Shown here piece by piece: positions 6,968 to 63,015 of a DNA stretch of 64,000 nucleotides (position 1 is its first letter; every line of letters begins with the position of its first letter). A model generated the notes under the pieces. It was given only the letters and a program-made list of their open reading frames with translations, did no database searches and was not told the DNA's origin. The stretch is from contig JBHPGK010000001.1 of assembly GCA_042570605.1 (NCBI GenBank), forward strand, positions 8,644 through 72,643, read 5' to 3'. The position numbers and the translations under genes are program-made. This DNA is from Candidatus Zhuqueibacterota bacterium. GTDB taxonomy: Bacteria > SM23-31 > JBHPGK01.

Positions 6968-7197
6968 TTTTACCTCCTTTTAATTGAGGCTCCCTGTCAT
7001 AATATATTATTACAATAATTATGCCGGAATAAGAAATAAGAAATTTATTCTCGTAACATCTTAATTATCAGTAACTTATGAAATGTACTGTGATAAATAT
7101 AAATATTGTTGAAACTGCGGGAAGTCTGAAAGAATGCGGGAAATGATGTAAAAATGTTAAGAATTAACAATCTTTATCTATTAATTGAAGGAATTAA

Positions 7198-7228
7198 AAG
7201 GAGGACATTGCTCAATGTCCTCTTTTTA
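7198..7228. terminator. Hairpin plus T-run, terminator-like palindromic repeat (GGAGGACATTGCTCAATGTCCTCTTTTT).
   Basis: It is a perfect 9-bp stem followed by T5. Near-identical copies occur at 42231-42260, and a variant at 42088-42118. Confidence 0.4.
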
Positions 7229-42230: not shown

Positions 42231-42260
42231 GAGAGGACATTGAGCAATGTCCTCTTTTTG
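42231..42260. terminator. Terminator-like hairpin plus T5, a copy of the repeat at 7198-7228.
   Basis: gagaggacattgagcaatgtcctcttttt is near-identical to the 7198 copy. Confidence 0.4.
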
Positions 42261-42339
42261 TAAATCAATAATTTCCAAACGCAGATAGACTATCCGTCAC
42301 AAAGTGATCACTTTGTGAAAAAACAATAAAAACTAAACG

Positions 42340-58039: not shown

Positions 58040-58669
58040 TCATCTTACCTTTATCCCGTTAAGCACAAGGTCAATTATACTTTCTTTTCTCTTCTGAACA
58101 AATTCATCGCAATCTTCAGTCTTTATATTCCAGATCTCATCCATAACCGGCTTGGAAAGAAAGTAGAAAACCGACATTCCCAGCACACTGATAATAGTCT
58201 GAATAGAATCAACATCTCTTATTTCGCCTTTGGATTTTGCTTCATCCAGTATCATTTTAATCGTGACTGGGGAAAAAAGCCAGTTTTCCTCAGTAACGAA
58301 TCCACCAATAATTCTTTTAATAACCGGTGCTCCGTCAATGATCTCCCTCATAATCAGCCTGGTTATCCGTACATTTTCAGCCAGGAAATCAATATAAATG
58401 CTGATAAAATTCTTAATTTTATTCTCTATGGCAATATCTTTCTTAAAAGCCTGTTCAACGGTCATAAAAATTTTTGTAAAAATATACTCCAATGATTTCT
58501 CATAAAGTGTATCTTTATCGGTATAATAATAATGGAGCATAGCCTTATTTATATCCGCTTTCTTTGCGATCTCATGCATCCTGGCGCCGTACTTCCCCTT
58601 TTCAATAAAGACATCGATCGCCGCAGCCAGGATCCTTTCTTTTGCATCAGCAGGTATTTCTTTTTTCAT
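58040..58669 (-). CDS. TetR/AcrR family transcriptional regulator (CecR/YbiH-like position).
   Basis: It has an N-terminal HTH (ERILAAAIDVFIEKGKYGARMHEIAKKADINKAMLHYYY). It sits directly upstream of the hlyD-ABC operon. Confidence 0.75.
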   Translation of the reverse strand: MKKEIPADAKERILAAAIDVFIEKGKYGARMHEIAKKADINKAMLHYYYTDKDTLYEKSLEYIFTKIFMTVEQAFKKDIAIENKIKNFISIYIDFLAENVRITRLIMREIIDGAPVIKRIIGGFVTEENWLFSPVTIKMILDEAKSKGEIRDVDSIQTIISVLGMSVFYFLSKPVMDEIWNIKTEDCDEFVQKRKESIIDLVLNGIKVR

Positions 58670-58929
58670 CTTTTAACCATTCGGTTTAATTAACTGTTTG
58701 GTTTATCTATACGGTTAATATAAGGAAAAGTTATAAATCTGTCAAGGATTTTTTGGAATAAAATTTAATCAACTAAGAGATGTTAAAGGAATGGTTTTAT
58801 TTCAGTAGTGTCCGGTAAAAAATAAAAAGACTTATACTTATGTTCTTGTTTTAATAGAACTTTAATCAAAATATATTAAATATTATTTGATTTTGAAAAA
58901 AATGATCGAATTGCAAAAATTATAAGCAA

Positions 58930-59015
58930 CTGGATTCCAGCCTTCGCTGGAATGATAGTTCCTATGTTCTTGTTATTATTCATGTTGTGTCATTCCAGCG
59001 AAGGCTGGAATCCAG
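58930..59015. repeat. Perfect 26-bp inverted repeat (CTGGATTCCAGCCTTCGCTGGAATGA) with a 34-nt spacer.
   Basis: Arm 1 is at 58930-58955 and arm 2 at 58990-59015. It is a member of the GGAATGAC/GTCATTCC family. Confidence 0.65.
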
Positions 59016-59082
59016 TTTTTTGATGTACGTAAAATATATTTTTATTTTTTTACCGAACAGTAGTGGTTTTATTTATTAAAAT

Positions 59083-59586
59083 TTACTGACAGTTTTTCTT
59101 ACTCCTTCTCTCCAGCAGCACTACATCCCGCCATATACCGTTCAATTTCCCGATCTTTTCTCTAATTTCCACTTCTCTGAATCCGCATTATTTAAATAAA
59201 TTTATACTGGTTTTATTTTCGGGAAAGATACCTGCCTGCAGTGTCCATAAGGTAAATCTTTCTGATTCCCCGATCAAGCTGTTCAGTAAAAATTCACCTG
59301 TACCCTTCCCTCTTTTTGCTGTTTCAACATAAATACTGACTTCTGCAGCACCGGAATACGCAGTTCTTGAAGACACCGGGTTCAGTGCAGTCCAACCAAT
59401 AATTTTTTCTCCGGAAACCGCTACAATCCTGCATTTATCAAGATGATTTTTGTTCCACTCTTCGCATTCCGGCACAATAGTTTCAAATGTAGCATTTCCG
59501 GTCAGAATACCCTGTTTGTATATCTCCTTGACATGAGACCAGTCCCCTTTTTTCATTTTTCTGATTATACAATCCATAAACAGCAA
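59083..59586 (-). pseudogene. GNAT family (phosphinothricin-acetyltransferase-like) N-acetyltransferase interrupted by an in-frame TAA.
   Basis: The track ORF ends ...GIFPENKTSINLFK*. The same frame continues CGFREVEIREKIGKLNGIWRDVVLLERRSKKKNCQ*, which is the conserved PAT C-terminus. The stop at 59188-59190 is a single A-to-T substitution in a Lys codon. Confidence 0.55.
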
Positions 59587-59593
59587 TTCATGA

Positions 59594-60973
59594 TTAATAC
59601 AATCCTGCTTTCTTAAGAGCCTGAACTGCGCCCTCCTGTTTCATCAAAGCTTCTATTTCCTCAACAGTTCTGGGGATTCCTTTAGTTAAAACTTCACAGC
59701 CGTCTTCAGTGATCAATATGGTGTTTTCAACCCTTACACCGAGGTTCTCATCCGGGAAAACTGCAAAGGGTTCATTCGCAAAAACCATTCCCGGCTTTAA
59801 TACAGACGGTCCCCCTCCAACATCATGTACAGCCATTCCTACATAATGTCCAAATCCCCCTCGCATCCTTTGAAAAACATCATCCGAAAGATCAAACCCC
59901 TGCTTTGTCAGGATATCCTCAACCCCTGTTCTTACTTCACTAATTGTAAGCCCTGGTTTATAGAGGCTGATACAAGCATTGTGTACTGCAAGCACCGTTT
60001 CATATATTTCCCGCTGTCTTGGTGTAAATCTCCCATTTACCGGATAGGAAACTGTGATATCTATATCGTAATAGTCAAAATCGGGACCGGCATCTACTAC
60101 AAGGAAATCTCCGTCCTCAAGAACCCGGTCGTATTTATAGTAATGCAGATACGGGTGGTTTTCTCCGGAACATAAGATGGTATAATAGGCAAGGTCATTA
60201 GCACCTTCCTTCTTGCAGTAATATTCAAACAGAGATGCAAGTTCATATTCATGCATGCCGGCGCCGGTGGATCTCATAAGTTCAATATGCGCATTTACCG
60301 CAATTTTGGCAGCTTTTCTCAGAATTTCGATCTCAGCCGGAGACTTGATTATTCGTAATTCAGTTATCATCTGACTGCAGTCCTTAACCTCGATATCGCT
60401 ATACCTGGTTTTTAAATGCTTTATAAATTGTTGTTCCCTGGTCATTCTCCCATCCCATTCATTGTTCTCCATAGTTCTTCTGAGAGTCCTGAGTTTTTCG
60501 TACTTACATTCTCTCATCAATTCTTCGGGAATATTAGAAGTATAAAAGATTTTCGTCTGTGATCTGAGTTTTTCCAAATAAGTAGAAAATTCTTCAATTG
60601 GGTAGACTTTTTCGATACCGGTAACGTTTTTTGGATCTCTAACTAAATCCAGACTGATCCCTTCGTTACGCGCTCCTCTTTCGGAAATTGTAAAAAACAG
60701 AATACTCTCTTTATTGATCCCGTCAATTATTAAAATCGAATTTGGAATTGTTACACCGCTAAAGTACATAAAATCATTGTTCTGGTAATGTTCATTATAT
60801 CCCACCCTTAATTGTGCGCCAAGAATGATAGCAATTCCATCCGGTATTTGCTGCATCAGTTTAGTCCTTCTGGCAGAGTACTCTGATTTTTCAAATATAC
60901 CGGCTGATAATGTGGAGGAAATTATAAGCGGGAATACAAATAATGATACTAAAACCAAAGTTCTTTTTTTCAT
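59594..60973 (-). CDS. M24B family Xaa-Pro aminopeptidase (aminopeptidase P) with a signal peptide.
   Basis: HYVGMAVHDVGG and the pita-bread fold metal ligands (D..D..H..E..E pattern) are present. There is an N-terminal signal. Confidence 0.8.
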   Translation of the reverse strand: MKKRTLVLVSLFVFPLIISSTLSAGIFEKSEYSARRTKLMQQIPDGIAIILGAQLRVGYNEHYQNNDFMYFSGVTIPNSILIIDGINKESILFFTISERGARNEGISLDLVRDPKNVTGIEKVYPIEEFSTYLEKLRSQTKIFYTSNIPEELMRECKYEKLRTLRRTMENNEWDGRMTREQQFIKHLKTRYSDIEVKDCSQMITELRIIKSPAEIEILRKAAKIAVNAHIELMRSTGAGMHEYELASLFEYYCKKEGANDLAYYTILCSGENHPYLHYYKYDRVLEDGDFLVVDAGPDFDYYDIDITVSYPVNGRFTPRQREIYETVLAVHNACISLYKPGLTISEVRTGVEDILTKQGFDLSDDVFQRMRGGFGHYVGMAVHDVGGGPSVLKPGMVFANEPFAVFPDENLGVRVENTILITEDGCEVLTKGIPRTVEEIEALMKQEGAVQALKKAGLY

Positions 60974-61243
60974 CTTTATCTCCGTAATTTAAAAAAATAT
61001 ACTTTTTCCTAATATCACCAATTTCTATCAAACAAAAAGGTAGAACGGCAGTTTCCGTGGAAATATGACACTAATTTAACATTTATTCTAATTATGGCAA
61101 ATGATATCGAGTTGATTGAGAACTGATAATTTTTCATTTCTGGTAATTTAACCGGTTTTTACAAAAAATTCAGTTAAAAAATACTTGCATTTATTCTATT
61201 CCATTTTTACATTTACGAGGTTAATAAAAGAAAGTTTAAAATT

Positions 61244-61303
61244 ATGAAATTATTATCTGATAAAATCTGGTGGTGGAAAACTAATTTATGGAGGCAGGTC
61301 TGA
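61244..61303 (+). promoter_or_regulatory. Candidate Trp-rich leader peptide (MKLLSDKIWWWKTNLWRQV) for ribosome-mediated attenuation.
   Basis: The 19-codon ORF has three consecutive TGG codons plus a fourth. It lies 40 nt upstream of a strong intrinsic terminator and is followed by trpB2. Its SD is weak. Confidence 0.4.
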
Positions 61304-61342
61304 TTAAATTCGGAAAATAACATTATAAATATAAATGTTAAA

Positions 61343-61374
61343 AACGCGGACCTGGAGGTTCGCGTTTTTTTTAT
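61343..61374 (+). terminator. Intrinsic terminator / attenuator hairpin immediately upstream of trpB2.
   Basis: aacgcgga-cctggagg-ttcgcgtt is an 8-bp stem (one G-U pair) followed by a T8-A-T4 tract. The RBS AAGGAGG and the trpB2 ATG follow within 25 nt. Confidence 0.55.
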
Positions 61375-61396
61375 TTTCAACAAGGAGGAAACAATT

Positions 61397-62695
61397 ATGG
61401 AAACCAGAAAGACAATGCTCACAGAAACAGAATTACCAAAATTCTATTACAACATTCTTGCCGACCTGGAAAATCCTTTAAGCCCGCCGCTTAATCCCGG
61501 AACAAAAGAACCGATAGGACCCGATGACCTTGCACCGATCTTCCCAATGGGATTGATCCGGCAGGAAGTCTCCACCGAAAGGTTCATTGAAATACCTAAG
61601 GAAGTTCTGGATGTATACAAGATATACCGCCCGACGCCTCTGGTTAGGGCAAGAAACCTCGAAAAACATCTCGACACTCCGGCAAAGATATATTATAAGA
61701 ACGAGAGTGTCAGCCCCACGGGAAGCCATAAAACTAATACTGCTATAGCACAGGCATTTTATAATAAGATTGAGGGAGTAAAAAAACTATCCACAGAAAC
61801 CGGTGCCGGGCAATGGGGCAGCGCACTTTCTTTTGCATGTAATATCTTTGATATGGAGTGCAGTGTTTATATGGTCAGGATAAGTTATGAACAAAAACCC
61901 CACCGGAGAACAATGATGGAGCTTTTTAATGCCAAGATAGTTCCCAGCCCTTCTGACAAGACAAATATAGGACAAAGATTTCTTGCACAGCATCCGGATA
62001 CTCCCGGAAGCCTTGGGATAGCGATCTCTGAAGCTCTTGAAGAAGCTGTTAGCGATGATAATACTAAATACTCTCTCGGCAGCGTTCTAAGCCATGTCCT
62101 GCTTCATCAAACAATTATCGGGCTGGAGACTGAAAAGCAGCTTGAAATTGCAGGTGATGCTCCTGACGTAATAATCGGCTGCTGCGGGGGAGGCAGTAAT
62201 CTCGGAGGCATAAGCTTTCCATTTATTAAACGTAAATTAAAAGGAGAAAATATCAGGGTAATTGCGGTAGAACCAAAGGTATGTCCTTCACTTACATGCG
62301 GAGACTTCAAATATGATTTCGGCGACACAGGAGAGATGACTCCCTTACTGGAAATGTTCAGCCTCGGACATGGATTTGTTCCTCCGCCGATCCATGCCGG
62401 AGGATTGAGATATCATGGCGCAGCACCTCTGGTGAGCAGGCTGGTGAAAGACAAATTGATCGAAGCGCAGTCTTTTGAGCAGACAGAGACTTTTGAGGCA
62501 GGGGCAATTTTTACAAAAACTGAAGGGATAATCCCTGCTCCGGAATCTGCGCATGCAGTCAAATCTGCAATACAAGAAGCTGTTAAATGTAAATCAGAGG
62601 GCAAAAAGAAGGTAATTATATTCAACTTGAGCGGACACGGACATTTTGATATGTCCGCATATGAGAATTATCTGAATAATGGTCTATCTACATAG
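61397..62695 (+). CDS. trpB2: TrpB2-type tryptophan synthase beta-like PLP enzyme.
   Basis: It has the PLP-Lys motif [15 protein letters not shown] and GAGQWGSA, and is 432 aa. The long N-terminal extension is typical of TrpB2 rather than TrpB1. Confidence 0.8.
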
Positions 62696-63015
62696 ATCTT
62701 TATTCGAAAGACATAATTCTTGAATGCTTTTTTAAAATCTGAAGAATTTATCATGAAGAGCATAGTAAGGTAAATGGTCATTACGAGGGGTCCCGTCCTC
62801 CCGAATTTTCGGGGGGCCGGGGCGCCAGCCTGCCTCTCTCCCTGTACAATCAGGACTCAGAATGACAACTTTTATTACAAATTGGGGATATTAATGTTTT
62901 TATTCAGCAAATTTCTTGAAATTTACTGAAATTTACCTTAAATTCTTAATGTTTTACCGGATATTTTTATAATTATGATATTTTTTAAGAAAAATCTCAT
63001 CCTTGAGGGTTTAAC

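What the first reader, a model, noticed from the sequence alone, without database searches (positions are those of the whole stretch)
61244..61396. Trp-codon-rich leader peptide plus intrinsic terminator upstream of trpB2, a candidate attenuator
ATG AAA TTA TTA TCT GAT AAA ATC TGG TGG TGG AAA ACT AAT TTA TGG AGG CAG GTC TGA encodes a 19-aa peptide with three consecutive Trp codons plus a fourth. An 8-bp GC-rich hairpin follows 40 nt downstream, then T8-A-T4 (61343-61374). The strong RBS and ATG of trpB2 follow immediately after. The leader's 3' end (GCAGGTC, 61294-61300) is complementary to GACCTG(C) in the terminator's 5' arm (61347-61353). This is a possible antiterminator pairing that ribosome stalling at WWW would favour. 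Classical Trp attenuation of a stand-alone trpB2, an enzyme whose physiological role is still debated, would be a useful functional clue that it really makes tryptophan here.
Basis: seen in the sequence. Interest (0 to 1): 0.65.

Follow-up and report, generated by a model that had tools for sequence, protein, structure and literature searches.

The report
Tryptophan-sensing leader attenuator before trpB2
A 19-codon mini-gene with three consecutive tryptophan codons, followed by a transcription stop signal, sits just upstream of a lone tryptophan-synthase-like gene (trpB2) in an uncultured KSB1 bacterium; it most likely switches that gene on when tryptophan runs short, and similar switches precede trpB2 in many related bacteria.

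Summary
The leader ORF (61244-61303, MKLLSDKIWWWKTNLWRQV*) holds the only TGGTGGTGG in the 64-kb window. A strong intrinsic terminator (61340-61377) lies between it and a bona fide TrpB2 gene (61397-62695).

An 8-bp antiterminator (61295-61302 with 61347-61354) includes the leader stop codon. It is far more stable than in shuffled controls (z about -3.8). A ribosome at the stop codon would mask it; one stalled at WWW would not.

No close relative of this genome was available. The nearest TrpB2 homologues (67-68% identity) and two other KSB1 loci lack the leader. Across 150 diverse trpB2 loci, however, a W-rich short ORF plus terminator occurs upstream on the sense strand in 21. It occurs in 0 antisense controls and in 3 of 1398 random windows.

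Among named genomes these leaders are confined to the FCB group, apart from one terminator-less Poribacteria ORF that is probably chance. Sequences differ but the geometry is the same. In Bacillota, trpB2 carries a UGG-specifier T-box instead.

Verdict: a classical ribosome-mediated Trp attenuator, a new member of a known kind. No Rfam family covers it, and I found no description in the searchable literature. It supports a Trp-supplying (indole-salvage) role for stand-alone TrpB2.

The parts
61158..61185 (+). Candidate sigma-70-like promoter for the leader transcript (TTTACA, 16 nt, AATACT). Inferred only.
   Evidence: Consensus scan, 9 of 12 matches. It lies in the divergent 423-nt intergenic region between the minus-strand Xaa-Pro aminopeptidase gene (59594-60973) and trpB2. 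No experimental support.
61244..61303 (+). Leader ORF, 19 codons plus UGA: MKLLSDKIWWWKTNLWRQV*
   Evidence: It has 4 Trp in 19 residues against a 1.07% background. It has no clear SD sequence upstream, but only 22 of 49 long ORFs in the window have one.
61268..61276 (+). Regulatory run of three Trp codons (UGG UGG UGG). A fourth UGG is at 61289-61291.
   Evidence: The only TGGTGGTGG in 64 kb on both strands, expected 0.16.
61295..61302 (+). Antiterminator 5' strand CAGGUCUG. It contains the first two bases of the leader stop codon UGA (61301-61303).
   Evidence: It pairs with 61347-61354 in the MFE fold of the nascent RNA 61287-61356, -14.6 kcal/mol. Shuffle z = -3.8.
61318..61340 (+). Small A/U-rich hairpin (ACAUUAU...AAAUGUU). 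It sits inside the antiterminator loop, or just 5' of the terminator.
   Evidence: Present in both alternative folds. Its role is unknown.
61347..61354 (+). Antiterminator 3' strand CGGACCUG. It comprises the core of the terminator 5' arm (61347-52) plus two loop bases.
   Evidence: All 8 core bases of the terminator 5' arm are sequestered in the nascent fold.
61340..61377 (+). Intrinsic terminator: 13-bp stem (6 G-C pairs), loop UGGA, then U8-A-U4.
   Evidence: 13 pairs, 6 GC. Hairpin alone is -17.3 kcal/mol. It is a hit in my strict terminator scan of the window. It ends 20 nt before the trpB2 ATG, so every trpB2 transcript must pass through it.
61382..61389 (+). Shine-Dalgarno sequence AAGGAGGA of trpB2. 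It is not part of either hairpin.
   Evidence: This argues for control of transcription rather than translation.
61397..62695 (+). trpB2: stand-alone TrpB-like PLP enzyme, 432 aa, 1 Trp.
   Evidence: NCBIfam NF009057 723 bits and TIGR01415 666 bits. 100% identical to an NCBI protein from a 'candidate division KSB1 bacterium'. No TrpB paralogue in the window. The flanking genes I examined are not trp genes.

Best explanation
This is a ribosome-mediated (leader-peptide) transcription attenuator that senses charged tRNA-Trp and controls a monocistronic trpB2.

Transcription starts upstream of 61244 (inferred). A ribosome translates the 19-codon leader while RNA polymerase proceeds.

- Trp plentiful: the ribosome runs to the UGA at 61301-03. 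Its footprint covers 61295-61302, so this segment cannot pair with 61347-61354. The terminator hairpin 61340-61369 plus U-tract then forms, and transcription stops 20 nt before trpB2.
- Trp-tRNA scarce: the ribosome stalls on UGG-UGG-UGG (61268-76). Its 3' edge is at about 61286-89, which leaves 61295-61302 free. That segment pairs with the terminator's 5' arm as soon as the arm is transcribed. This antiterminator acts kinetically. Polymerase reads through and TrpB2 is made.

TrpB2 then makes Trp from indole plus serine or O-phosphoserine, i.e. indole salvage.

Shown here: all sequence elements, the alternative pairings with their statistics, and recurrence of the same design upstream of trpB2 in other FCB-group bacteria.

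Inferred: the promoter, translation of the leader, ribosome footprint geometry, Trp dependence, and the enzyme's in vivo substrate.
For: 1. Elements and geometry were read directly.

2. The terminator is strong. It lies inside the 5' UTR of trpB2, and there is no upstream co-directional gene for it to terminate.

3. The nascent RNA folds into the antiterminator at -14.6 kcal/mol, against -6.5 +/- 2.2 in shuffles (3 of 1000; 0 of 300, z = -3.84). With a ribosome modelled on the stop codon, only the terminator forms.

4. The energy ranking is terminator -25.0 against enforced antiterminator -15.6 kcal/mol. From my own knowledge, this matches the classical E. coli trp leader, where 3:4 is more stable than 2:3.

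5. Comparative evidence from 150 trpB2 loci with at least 300 nt upstream:
- A WWW short ORF is on the sense strand in 16. It is on the antisense strand in 0, and in 3 of 1417 random windows.
- A W(x)W short ORF with a terminator within 110 nt occurs in 21, against 0 antisense and 3 of 1398 random windows.

6. In 13 of 15 analysed leaders, the MFE of the nascent RNA pairs the terminator 5' arm with a segment lying mostly -11 to +23 nt from the leader stop codon (one outlier, L033, at -25 to -14). In L035 such a pairing is present but no more stable than in shuffles; in L029 it is absent. The sequences are unrelated between clades.

7. Among named genomes the leaders are confined to FCB-group taxa: Bacteroidales, Zixibacteria, Latescibacterota, Ignavibacteriales. 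KSB1 belongs to that group.

8. Bacillota trpB2 loci carry T-box leaders instead, one with a UGG specifier. Sensing of Trp-tRNA upstream of trpB2 therefore arose by different routes.

9. The B. thetaiotaomicron TrpB2 rescued an E. coli trpA mutant through cross-fed indole (preprint 10.1101/2024.05.08.593210).
Against: - There is no experimental data.
- No close orthologue was available to test conservation of this particular leader.
- The nearest TrpB2 homologues (67-68% identity: L161, L162, L164) and two other KSB1/Zhuqueibacterota loci (L002, L162) have no W-leader.
- The leader ORF has no clear Shine-Dalgarno sequence, while trpB2 has a perfect one. About half of the window's genes also lack one.
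- No 1:2-type anti-antiterminator or pause hairpin was found. Without any translation the antiterminator would form, giving default read-through, unlike E. coli trpL.
- A stall at the fourth Trp codon (61289-91) would mask the antiterminator and favour termination.
- The antiterminator is only 8 bp, closes a 44-nt loop, and is about 9 kcal/mol less stable than the terminator state.
Confidence: 0.75

Rival explanations
1. The terminator is a real attenuator, but it is controlled by something other than the ribosome: an RNA-binding protein, a small-molecule riboswitch or tRNA. The Trp-codon ORF would be incidental.
For: The leader ORF lacks an SD sequence. There is no 1:2 hairpin. There is a weak sub-threshold hit to the Rfam 'trpB motif' riboswitch candidate, 22.3 bits.
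Against: - No Rfam family reaches its gathering score.
- The trpB-motif hit is far below its threshold of 59 bits. That family is from Firmicutes and Fusobacteria.
- No T-box was found. No TRAP-like (G/U)AG repeat array was found.
- The unique WWW run, its reading frame, and the stop codon lying inside the antiterminator would all have to be coincidences. The same coincidences would have to recur in more than 20 other trpB2 loci.
Confidence: 0.08
2. An independent small gene (a W-rich micropeptide or a small RNA) with its own terminator happens to lie upstream. trpB2 is then expressed by leaky read-through or from its own promoter.
For: A short ORF followed by a strong terminator is also the anatomy of a small stand-alone gene. 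In Sinorhizobium, attenuator RNAs and leader peptides can have trans functions (abstracts listed: PMC6614838, PMC7298713).
Against: - Only 19 nt separate the U-tract from the trpB2 ATG, and the SD sequence fills most of it. There is no room for a separate promoter.
- Across clades the peptides share nothing but the Trp run.
- The association is specific to trpB2.
- A trans role would add to attenuation rather than replace it.
Confidence: 0.07
3. Chance co-occurrence of a TGG run, a short ORF and a hairpin in an AT-rich intergenic region, with no regulatory function.
For: Neither the closest TrpB2 homologues nor other KSB1 genomes have the leader. Short ORFs are common in any intergenic DNA.
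Against: - The expected number of TGGTGGTGG in the whole window is 0.16, and the only copy is here.
- The antiterminator z-score is -3.8.
- W-ORF plus terminator is found in 0.2% of random windows, against 14% of trpB2 upstream regions.
Confidence: 0.03
4. Leader translation acts mainly on trpB2 translation or mRNA stability (for example ribosome re-initiation or coupling), rather than on transcription termination.
For: Leader ORFs have been proposed to boost downstream translation by re-initiation (PMC4833913, listed). The Ignavibacteriales locus L004 has a WWW leader with no obvious terminator.
Against: In the window the leader stop codon is 93 nt upstream of the trpB2 ATG. The SD sequence is not sequestered in either fold. 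A canonical terminator with U8 intervenes.
Confidence: 0.05

Closest known systems
E. coli / enterobacterial trp operon leader (trpL; Rfam RF00513 Trp_leader)
   Same: - A short leader ORF with tandem Trp codons near its end.
- An intrinsic terminator before the first structural gene.
- An antiterminator that shares the terminator's 5' arm and lies where a ribosome at the leader stop codon masks it.
- A terminator that is thermodynamically stronger than the antiterminator.
- Comparable spacing from the leader stop codon to the terminator, as far as I recall the E. coli leader.
- The peptide context WWW-K-T here, and WWWR / WWRT in the Bacteroidales relatives. These resemble E. coli ...GWWRTS. 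The E. coli details come from my own knowledge.
   Different: - No sequence or covariance-model similarity. RF00513 does not appear even at E <= 10.
- Three plus one Trp codons instead of two.
- No 1:2 protector/pause hairpin was detected, so an untranslated leader should read through.
- The stop codon is inside the antiterminator strand rather than just before it.
- It controls a single stand-alone trpB2 rather than trpEDCBA.
- The host is an uncultured KSB1 (FCB group) bacterium.
W-leader attenuators upstream of stand-alone trpB2 in other FCB-group bacteria, found here (for example L008, L026, L065, L075 in Bacteroidales; L025 in Zixibacteria; metagenomic L086, L126, L134, L143, L158)
   Same: - The same gene is controlled.
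- The leader ORF has 2-4 adjacent Trp codons.
- The terminator U-tract begins 52-74 nt after the leader stop (64 nt in the window).
- The antiterminator 5' strand lies at or next to the stop codon.
- trpB2 is not next to other trp genes.
   Different: - No detectable sequence homology to the window's leader. The Bacteroidales type uses a conserved GUAAACA / UGUUUAC pairing, and a second type uses GGUAUG..CCAC / GUGG...
- Many relatives have two tandem terminators, while the window has one.
- None is in Rfam, and I found no description in the searchable literature.
T-box leaders with a Trp (UGG) specifier upstream of trpB2 in Bacillota
   Same: They sense uncharged versus charged tRNA-Trp and control read-through of a terminator upstream of the same gene family (L069 and L062).
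   Different: They are tRNA-binding riboswitches of about 280-300 nt, with no leader ORF. No T-box is present in the window.
Actinobacterial Trp leader-peptide attenuators (Seliverstov et al. 2005, PMC1262725)
   Same: They are leader-peptide Trp attenuators predicted outside the Proteobacteria. One lies upstream of an operon that the paper names trpB2A in C. diphtheriae.
   Different: The hairpins are GC-rich with conserved GGCC-type triples, and the phylum is different. There 'trpB2' is paired with trpA, and I could not establish that it is the TIGR01415 class.
Rfam RF04312 trpB ncRNA motif (Narunsky et al. 2024, PMC11109978)
   Same: A two-hairpin 5' UTR element ending in an intrinsic terminator, sometimes upstream of trpB.
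   Different: It is a riboswitch candidate from Firmicutes and Fusobacteria, found mostly upstream of ABC transporters. The window scores 22.3 bits against a threshold of 59. The match spans 61283-61377, which includes the terminator hairpin. It is not a member.

Membership tests
Ribosome-mediated (leader-peptide) amino-acid transcription attenuators | A short ORF in the 5' leader with clustered codons for the amino acid made by the controlled gene. | tested here: met
   The 19-codon ORF 61244-61303 has WWW plus one more W. It holds the only TGGTGGTGG in the window.
Ribosome-mediated (leader-peptide) amino-acid transcription attenuators | An intrinsic terminator between the leader ORF and the structural gene. 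| tested here: met
   61340-61377: 13-bp stem, 6 G-C pairs, U8AU4. -17.3 kcal/mol.
Ribosome-mediated (leader-peptide) amino-acid transcription attenuators | A mutually exclusive antiterminator that uses the terminator's 5' arm. | tested here: met
   61295-61302 pairs with 61347-61354. Nascent fold is -14.6 kcal/mol, z = -3.8 against shuffles.
Ribosome-mediated (leader-peptide) amino-acid transcription attenuators | Geometry: a ribosome at the stop codon masks the antiterminator, and a ribosome stalled at the regulatory codons does not. | tested here: met
   The stop codon (61301-03) lies inside the antiterminator 5' strand. The WWW run ends 18 nt upstream of that strand. The footprint sizes are assumed from general knowledge.
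Ribosome-mediated (leader-peptide) amino-acid transcription attenuators | An anti-antiterminator / pause hairpin (1:2) that enforces termination when the leader is not translated (E. coli-type three-hairpin design). | tested here: not met
   The fold of the untranslated nascent RNA 61222-61356 still forms the antiterminator. This feature defines the E. coli subtype, not the mechanism as such.
Ribosome-mediated (leader-peptide) amino-acid transcription attenuators | Read-through rises on starvation for the cognate amino acid and depends on leader translation. | not testable with these tools
   This needs reporter fusions, Term-seq or coupled in vitro transcription-translation.
Rfam RF00513 Trp_leader (enterobacterial) | A covariance-model match at or above the gathering score. 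| tested here: not met
   No hit at gathering score in the window. Not listed even at E <= 10 for 60900-61500.
Rfam RF04312 trpB ncRNA motif | A covariance-model match at or above 59 bits. | tested here: not met
   22.3 bits, E = 1.2.
T-box leader (RF00230) | A covariance-model match with Stem I, a specifier loop and the T-box sequence. | tested here: not met
   No hit in the window. Positive controls were found upstream of trpB2 in Bacillota loci.
TRAP-regulated trp leader (Bacillus) | An array of 9-11 (G/U)AG triplets spaced by 2-3 nt. | tested here: not met
   Only 4 such triplets occur in 61190-61396, and none are in register.
TrpB2 (TIGR01415 / NF009057) for the controlled gene | A full-length HMM match above the curated cutoff that beats canonical TrpB1. 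| tested here: met
   723 bits (cutoff 366) and 666 bits (cutoff 519). TIGR00263 trpB scores 169 bits against a cutoff of 392.

The most novel reading that the evidence does not exclude
The window's element would be one member of a widespread, uncatalogued set of Trp leader-peptide attenuators. These would control stand-alone trpB2 across the FCB superphylum (Bacteroidales, Zixibacteria, KSB1, Latescibacterota and others).

They would have been built repeatedly from unrelated sequences on one blueprint: the stop codon embedded in or next to the antiterminator, no protector hairpin, and often tandem terminators.

Together with the Trp T-boxes on trpB2 in Bacillota, this would be the first regulatory evidence across phyla that TrpB2 is a Trp-starvation-induced, Trp-supplying (indole-salvage) enzyme.
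Probability: 0.55. Interest if true: 0.6.

Novelty: new member of a known kind. Interest (0 to 1): 0.5.

Why it matters
The physiological role of stand-alone TrpB2 has been argued mainly from enzyme kinetics. Proposals include indole salvage and O-phosphoserine-dependent Trp synthesis.

A switch that reads Trp-tRNA supply and opens only under Trp shortage is independent, organism-level evidence that the cell uses this enzyme to obtain tryptophan.

The finding also extends classical leader-peptide attenuation, best known from Proteobacteria and Actinobacteria, to an uncultured KSB1 bacterium and to many Bacteroidales and Zixibacteria. Cultured Bacteroidales with a leader-bearing trpB2, if one can be identified, could serve to test it directly.

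For genome annotation, these leaders are not in Rfam. They would be missed, or called as hypothetical small proteins.

Tried and rejected
- **Rfam, whole window at gathering score:** nothing. At E <= 10 around the element there were only sub-threshold hits, mostly spanning the terminator region. These included RF04312 'trpB motif', which I looked up and rejected.
- **Rfam on 15 FCB trpB2 loci:** only a tRNA, so the related leaders are not catalogued either.
- **Search for close orthologues:** Genome contigs, metagenome contigs and the 5.8-billion protein set. Nothing was above 69% identity except the source protein itself.
- **Exact lookup of the source protein:** The look-up of encoding contigs on the source protein failed, so the remaining roughly 14 kb of the 78-kb source contig could not be inspected for other trp genes.
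- **Nearest homologues:** L161, L162 and L164 were inspected and have no leader.
- **TrpB1 paralogue in the window:** none.
- **TRAP-site repeats:** none.
- **A 1:2 protector hairpin:** not found.
- **Literature:** ten searches found no description of W-leaders upstream of trpB2 in Bacteroidota or the FCB group. The library misses most subscription-journal papers. The 2004 Vitreschak attenuator survey and the 2008 Merino/Jensen/Yanofsky review, which I recall from memory, could not be read. Prior mention therefore cannot be excluded.
- **Covariation alignment across clades:** not attempted, because the leaders are not alignable between clades. I used per-locus shuffle tests instead.

Full report
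**1. What is in the sequence**

The region 60974-61396 is a divergent intergenic spacer. On its left, on the minus strand, is a Xaa-Pro aminopeptidase-like gene (59594-60973). On its right, on the plus strand, is a 432-aa ORF (61397-62695).

The plus-strand ORF is a TrpB2. It scores 723 bits on NCBIfam NF009057 and 666 bits on TIGR01415, both far above their cutoffs. It fails the canonical trpB model (169 bits against a cutoff of 392). It is 100% identical to an NCBI protein from a 'candidate division KSB1 bacterium'. NCBI taxonomy places this organism in Candidatus Zhuqueibacterota, within the FCB group.

The spacer contains the following elements:
- A 19-codon ORF at 61244-61303, MKLLSDKIWWWKTNLWRQV*. 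Its UGG codons are at 61268, 61271, 61274 and 61289.
- A hairpin at 61340-61369: 13 bp with 6 G-C pairs and loop UGGA.
- A tail of U8-A-U4, ending at 61377.
- The Shine-Dalgarno sequence AAGGAGGA at 61382-89, then the trpB2 ATG at 61397.

**2. Is it more than chance?**

- TGGTGGTGG occurs once in the 64-kb window on both strands, here. The expected count is 0.16.
- Trp makes up 1.07% of residues in the window's long ORFs but 21% of the leader. TrpB2 itself has a single Trp.
- With strict criteria only eight terminators are found on both strands of the window. This is the only one that sits immediately upstream of a gene start with no co-directional gene before it.
- Only 19 nt separate the U-tract from the ATG. 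Any trpB2 transcript must therefore be made through this terminator.

**3. Alternative structures**

I modelled a ribosome stalled on the WWW run by folding the RNA from 61287 up to the terminator loop at 61356. The MFE structure pairs CAGGUCUG (61295-61302) with CGGACCUG (61347-61354), and all eight core bases of the terminator's 5' arm are sequestered.

The energy is -14.6 kcal/mol. Dinucleotide shuffles of the upstream part give -6.5 +/- 2.2. The observed value was reached by 3 of 1000 shuffles and 0 of 300 (z = -3.84).

The 5' strand contains the first two bases of the leader's UGA stop codon. With a ribosome modelled on the stop codon, the remaining RNA (61316-61378) forms only the terminator.

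In the full transcript the terminator state (-25.0 kcal/mol) is more stable than the enforced antiterminator state (-15.6 kcal/mol). The antiterminator must therefore act kinetically. From my own knowledge, the E. coli trp leader behaves the same way.

I found no 1:2-type protector hairpin. An untranslated nascent leader still forms the antiterminator.

G61294 is unpaired, and the helix extends through the stop codon instead.

**4. Comparative evidence**

No close relative exists in the collections. The best TrpB2 matches are 65-69% identical. The three nearest homologues I could inspect (L161, L162, L164) have no Trp-rich leader. Neither do two other KSB1/Zhuqueibacterota loci, L002 and L162. 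Conservation of this particular leader cannot be shown.

The same design is nevertheless strikingly recurrent upstream of trpB2 elsewhere. Among 150 trpB2 loci with at least 300 nt of upstream sequence:

| Feature upstream of trpB2 | Sense strand | Antisense strand | Random 300-nt windows |
|---|---|---|---|
| Short ORF containing WWW | 16 of 150 | 0 of 150 | 3 of 1417 |
| W(x)W short ORF plus terminator within 110 nt | 21 of 150 | 0 of 150 | 3 of 1398 |

Other points from these loci:
- The terminator U-tract starts 52-74 nt after the leader stop. In the window the distance is 64 nt.
- In 13 of 15 leaders folded as above, the terminator's 5' arm pairs with a segment lying mostly -11 to +23 nt from the leader stop codon (L033 is an outlier at -25 to -14). 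Most z-scores are negative, with a mean of -2.0.
- Of the other two, L035 shows such a pairing but it is no more stable than in shuffles, and L029 shows none.
- The paired sequences differ completely between clades. The window uses CAGGUCUG/CGGACCUG. Bacteroidales use GUAAACA/UGUUUAC. Another group uses GGUAUG..CCAC/GUGG... The feature that is kept is the architecture, not the sequence.
- Within the Bacteroidales subgroup the 21-residue peptides vary at the N-terminus but keep F(W/C)WWR.
- Among named genomes, all leaders that also have a terminator are in FCB-group taxa: Bacteroidales, Zixibacteria, Latescibacterota. An Ignavibacteriales locus (L004) has a WWW ORF without an obvious terminator.
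- None with a terminator is found in the archaeal, Desulfobacterota, Chloroflexota or Bacillota loci. One Poribacteria locus (L003) has a 'WW' ORF without a terminator, which is probably chance.
- In the leader-bearing loci trpB2 is not adjacent to trp genes.
- In Bacillota, trpB2 is instead preceded by T-box leaders (L062, L069). The L069 specifier reads UGG.

Control of trpB2 by Trp-tRNA availability thus appears in different phyla by different devices.

**5. Mechanism proposed**

This is a ribosome-mediated transcription attenuator. When Trp-tRNA is plentiful, the ribosome reaches the UGA and masks 61295-61302. The terminator forms and transcription ends at about 61370-77.

When Trp-tRNA is scarce, the ribosome stalls at 61268-76. 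Its leading edge is at about 61286-89. The antiterminator forms as soon as 61347-54 emerges, and polymerase reads into trpB2.

The following steps are inferred rather than shown:
- the promoter (a 9-of-12 sigma-70-like match at 61158-85);
- translation of the leader, which has no clear SD sequence, although only 22 of 49 long ORFs in the window have one;
- ribosome footprint sizes;
- the response to Trp.

A stall at the fourth UGG (61289-91) would mask the antiterminator. That codon is probably not part of the sensor.

**6. Rivals**

- A ligand-, protein- or tRNA-controlled attenuator is disfavoured. There is no Rfam family at threshold, no T-box and no TRAP-site repeats. The trpB2-specific recurrence of in-frame Trp runs also argues against it.
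- An independent small gene is disfavoured, because there is no room for a trpB2 promoter after the terminator.
- Pure chance is excluded for practical purposes by the statistics above.
- Translational control is unlikely, because the SD sequence is free in both folds.

**7. Comparison with known systems and novelty**

The element works like the classical trpL attenuator. It is not a sequence or structure member of Rfam Trp_leader (no hit). It lacks the protector hairpin and controls a lone trpB2.

The Rfam 'trpB motif' (RF04312) is a riboswitch candidate from Firmicutes and Fusobacteria (PMC11109978). The window's 22-bit hit, against a threshold of 59, spans 61283-61377, which includes the terminator hairpin.

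As of 2010, Naville and Gautheret knew of leader peptides only in Proteobacteria and Actinobacteria, to which they added Firmicutes (PMC2965389). Seliverstov et al. predicted Trp attenuators in Actinobacteria (PMC1262725).

I found no paper describing Trp leaders on trpB2 in the FCB group. Key subscription-journal surveys were not readable, so prior mention cannot be excluded.

I therefore classify this as a new member of a known kind. It probably represents a broader uncatalogued set.

**8. Significance**

The switch is regulatory evidence that this stand-alone TrpB2 serves Trp supply. A published result agrees with this. The B. thetaiotaomicron TrpB2 rescued an E. coli trpA mutant only when indole-secreting cells were nearby (preprint 10.1101/2024.05.08.593210).

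The finding is solid and useful, but it is mechanistically conventional.

Noticed in passing
window 62785-62835 (within the 320-nt gap 62696-63015 after trpB2): A markedly GC-rich, strongly paired element (GGGGUCCCGUCCUCCCGAAUUUUCGGGGGGCCGGGGCG) in a genome of 37.7% GC. It is unique in the window. The fold of 62696-62900 has z = -2.15. No U-tract follows. It may be a 3' stabiliser, an unusual terminator or a small RNA.
   Followed up: partly
window 58928-58955 / 58990-59017: A perfect 28-nt inverted repeat (AACTGGATTCCAGCCTTCGCTGGAATGA) with a 34-nt spacer, in the intergenic region between the TetR-like gene (58040-58669) and the 59188-59586 ORF. It looks like a REP- or MITE-like palindromic element.
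   Followed up: no
window ~42233-42262 (+) and ~7192-7220 (-): The identical hairpin GAGGACATTGAGCAATGTCCTC followed by a T-run occurs twice, 35 kb apart and on opposite strands. It is a repeated terminator-like element.
   Followed up: no
L014, L031, L042 (Ignavibacteria), about 60-170 nt upstream of trpB2: A conserved short ORF (for example MKIRLKNISLSSSFIWRPRA*) has a single Trp codon placed exactly at the 5' foot of a GGCGC-N4-GCGCC hairpin. That hairpin spans the end of the ORF. No adjacent U-tract follows. This may be a different, one-codon Trp-sensing design.
   Followed up: no
L025, L026, L065, L075, L086, L126, L134, L156, L158 (upstream of trpB2): Many related leaders carry two tandem intrinsic terminators about 40-50 nt apart after the Trp leader ORF. 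The window has only one.
   Followed up: partly
L069 2746-3039; L062 3680-3960; L078 2241-2536: T-box leaders lie upstream of trpB2 in two Bacillota MAGs, and further upstream in an Anaerolineae MAG. The L069 specifier position reads UGG (Trp).
   Followed up: partly
L026, L029, L035, L065, L075, L147, L156, L021, L024, L034 leader peptides; window 61268-61282: The residue after the Trp run is almost always Arg in Bacteroidales (WWWR, WLWR, CWWR). L075 reads CWWRT, and the window reads WWWKT. From memory, this echoes E. coli TrpL ...GWWRTS. It could be coincidence or a shared constraint on the stalling context.
   Followed up: no
L026 1322-3481 (similarly placed ORF in L065, not scanned); L065 5408-6397; L147 2813-3943: In several Bacteroidales loci the leader-bearing trpB2 is flanked by an aldehyde:ferredoxin oxidoreductase gene and/or a Rieske/VanA-like oxygenase gene. 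This may hint at a link to metabolism of aromatic or indole-derived compounds.
   Followed up: no
L028 3260-3398 (-): A Guanidine-I riboswitch lies near the trpB2 of a Bacillota MAG, on the opposite strand. It is unrelated to the finding.
   Followed up: no
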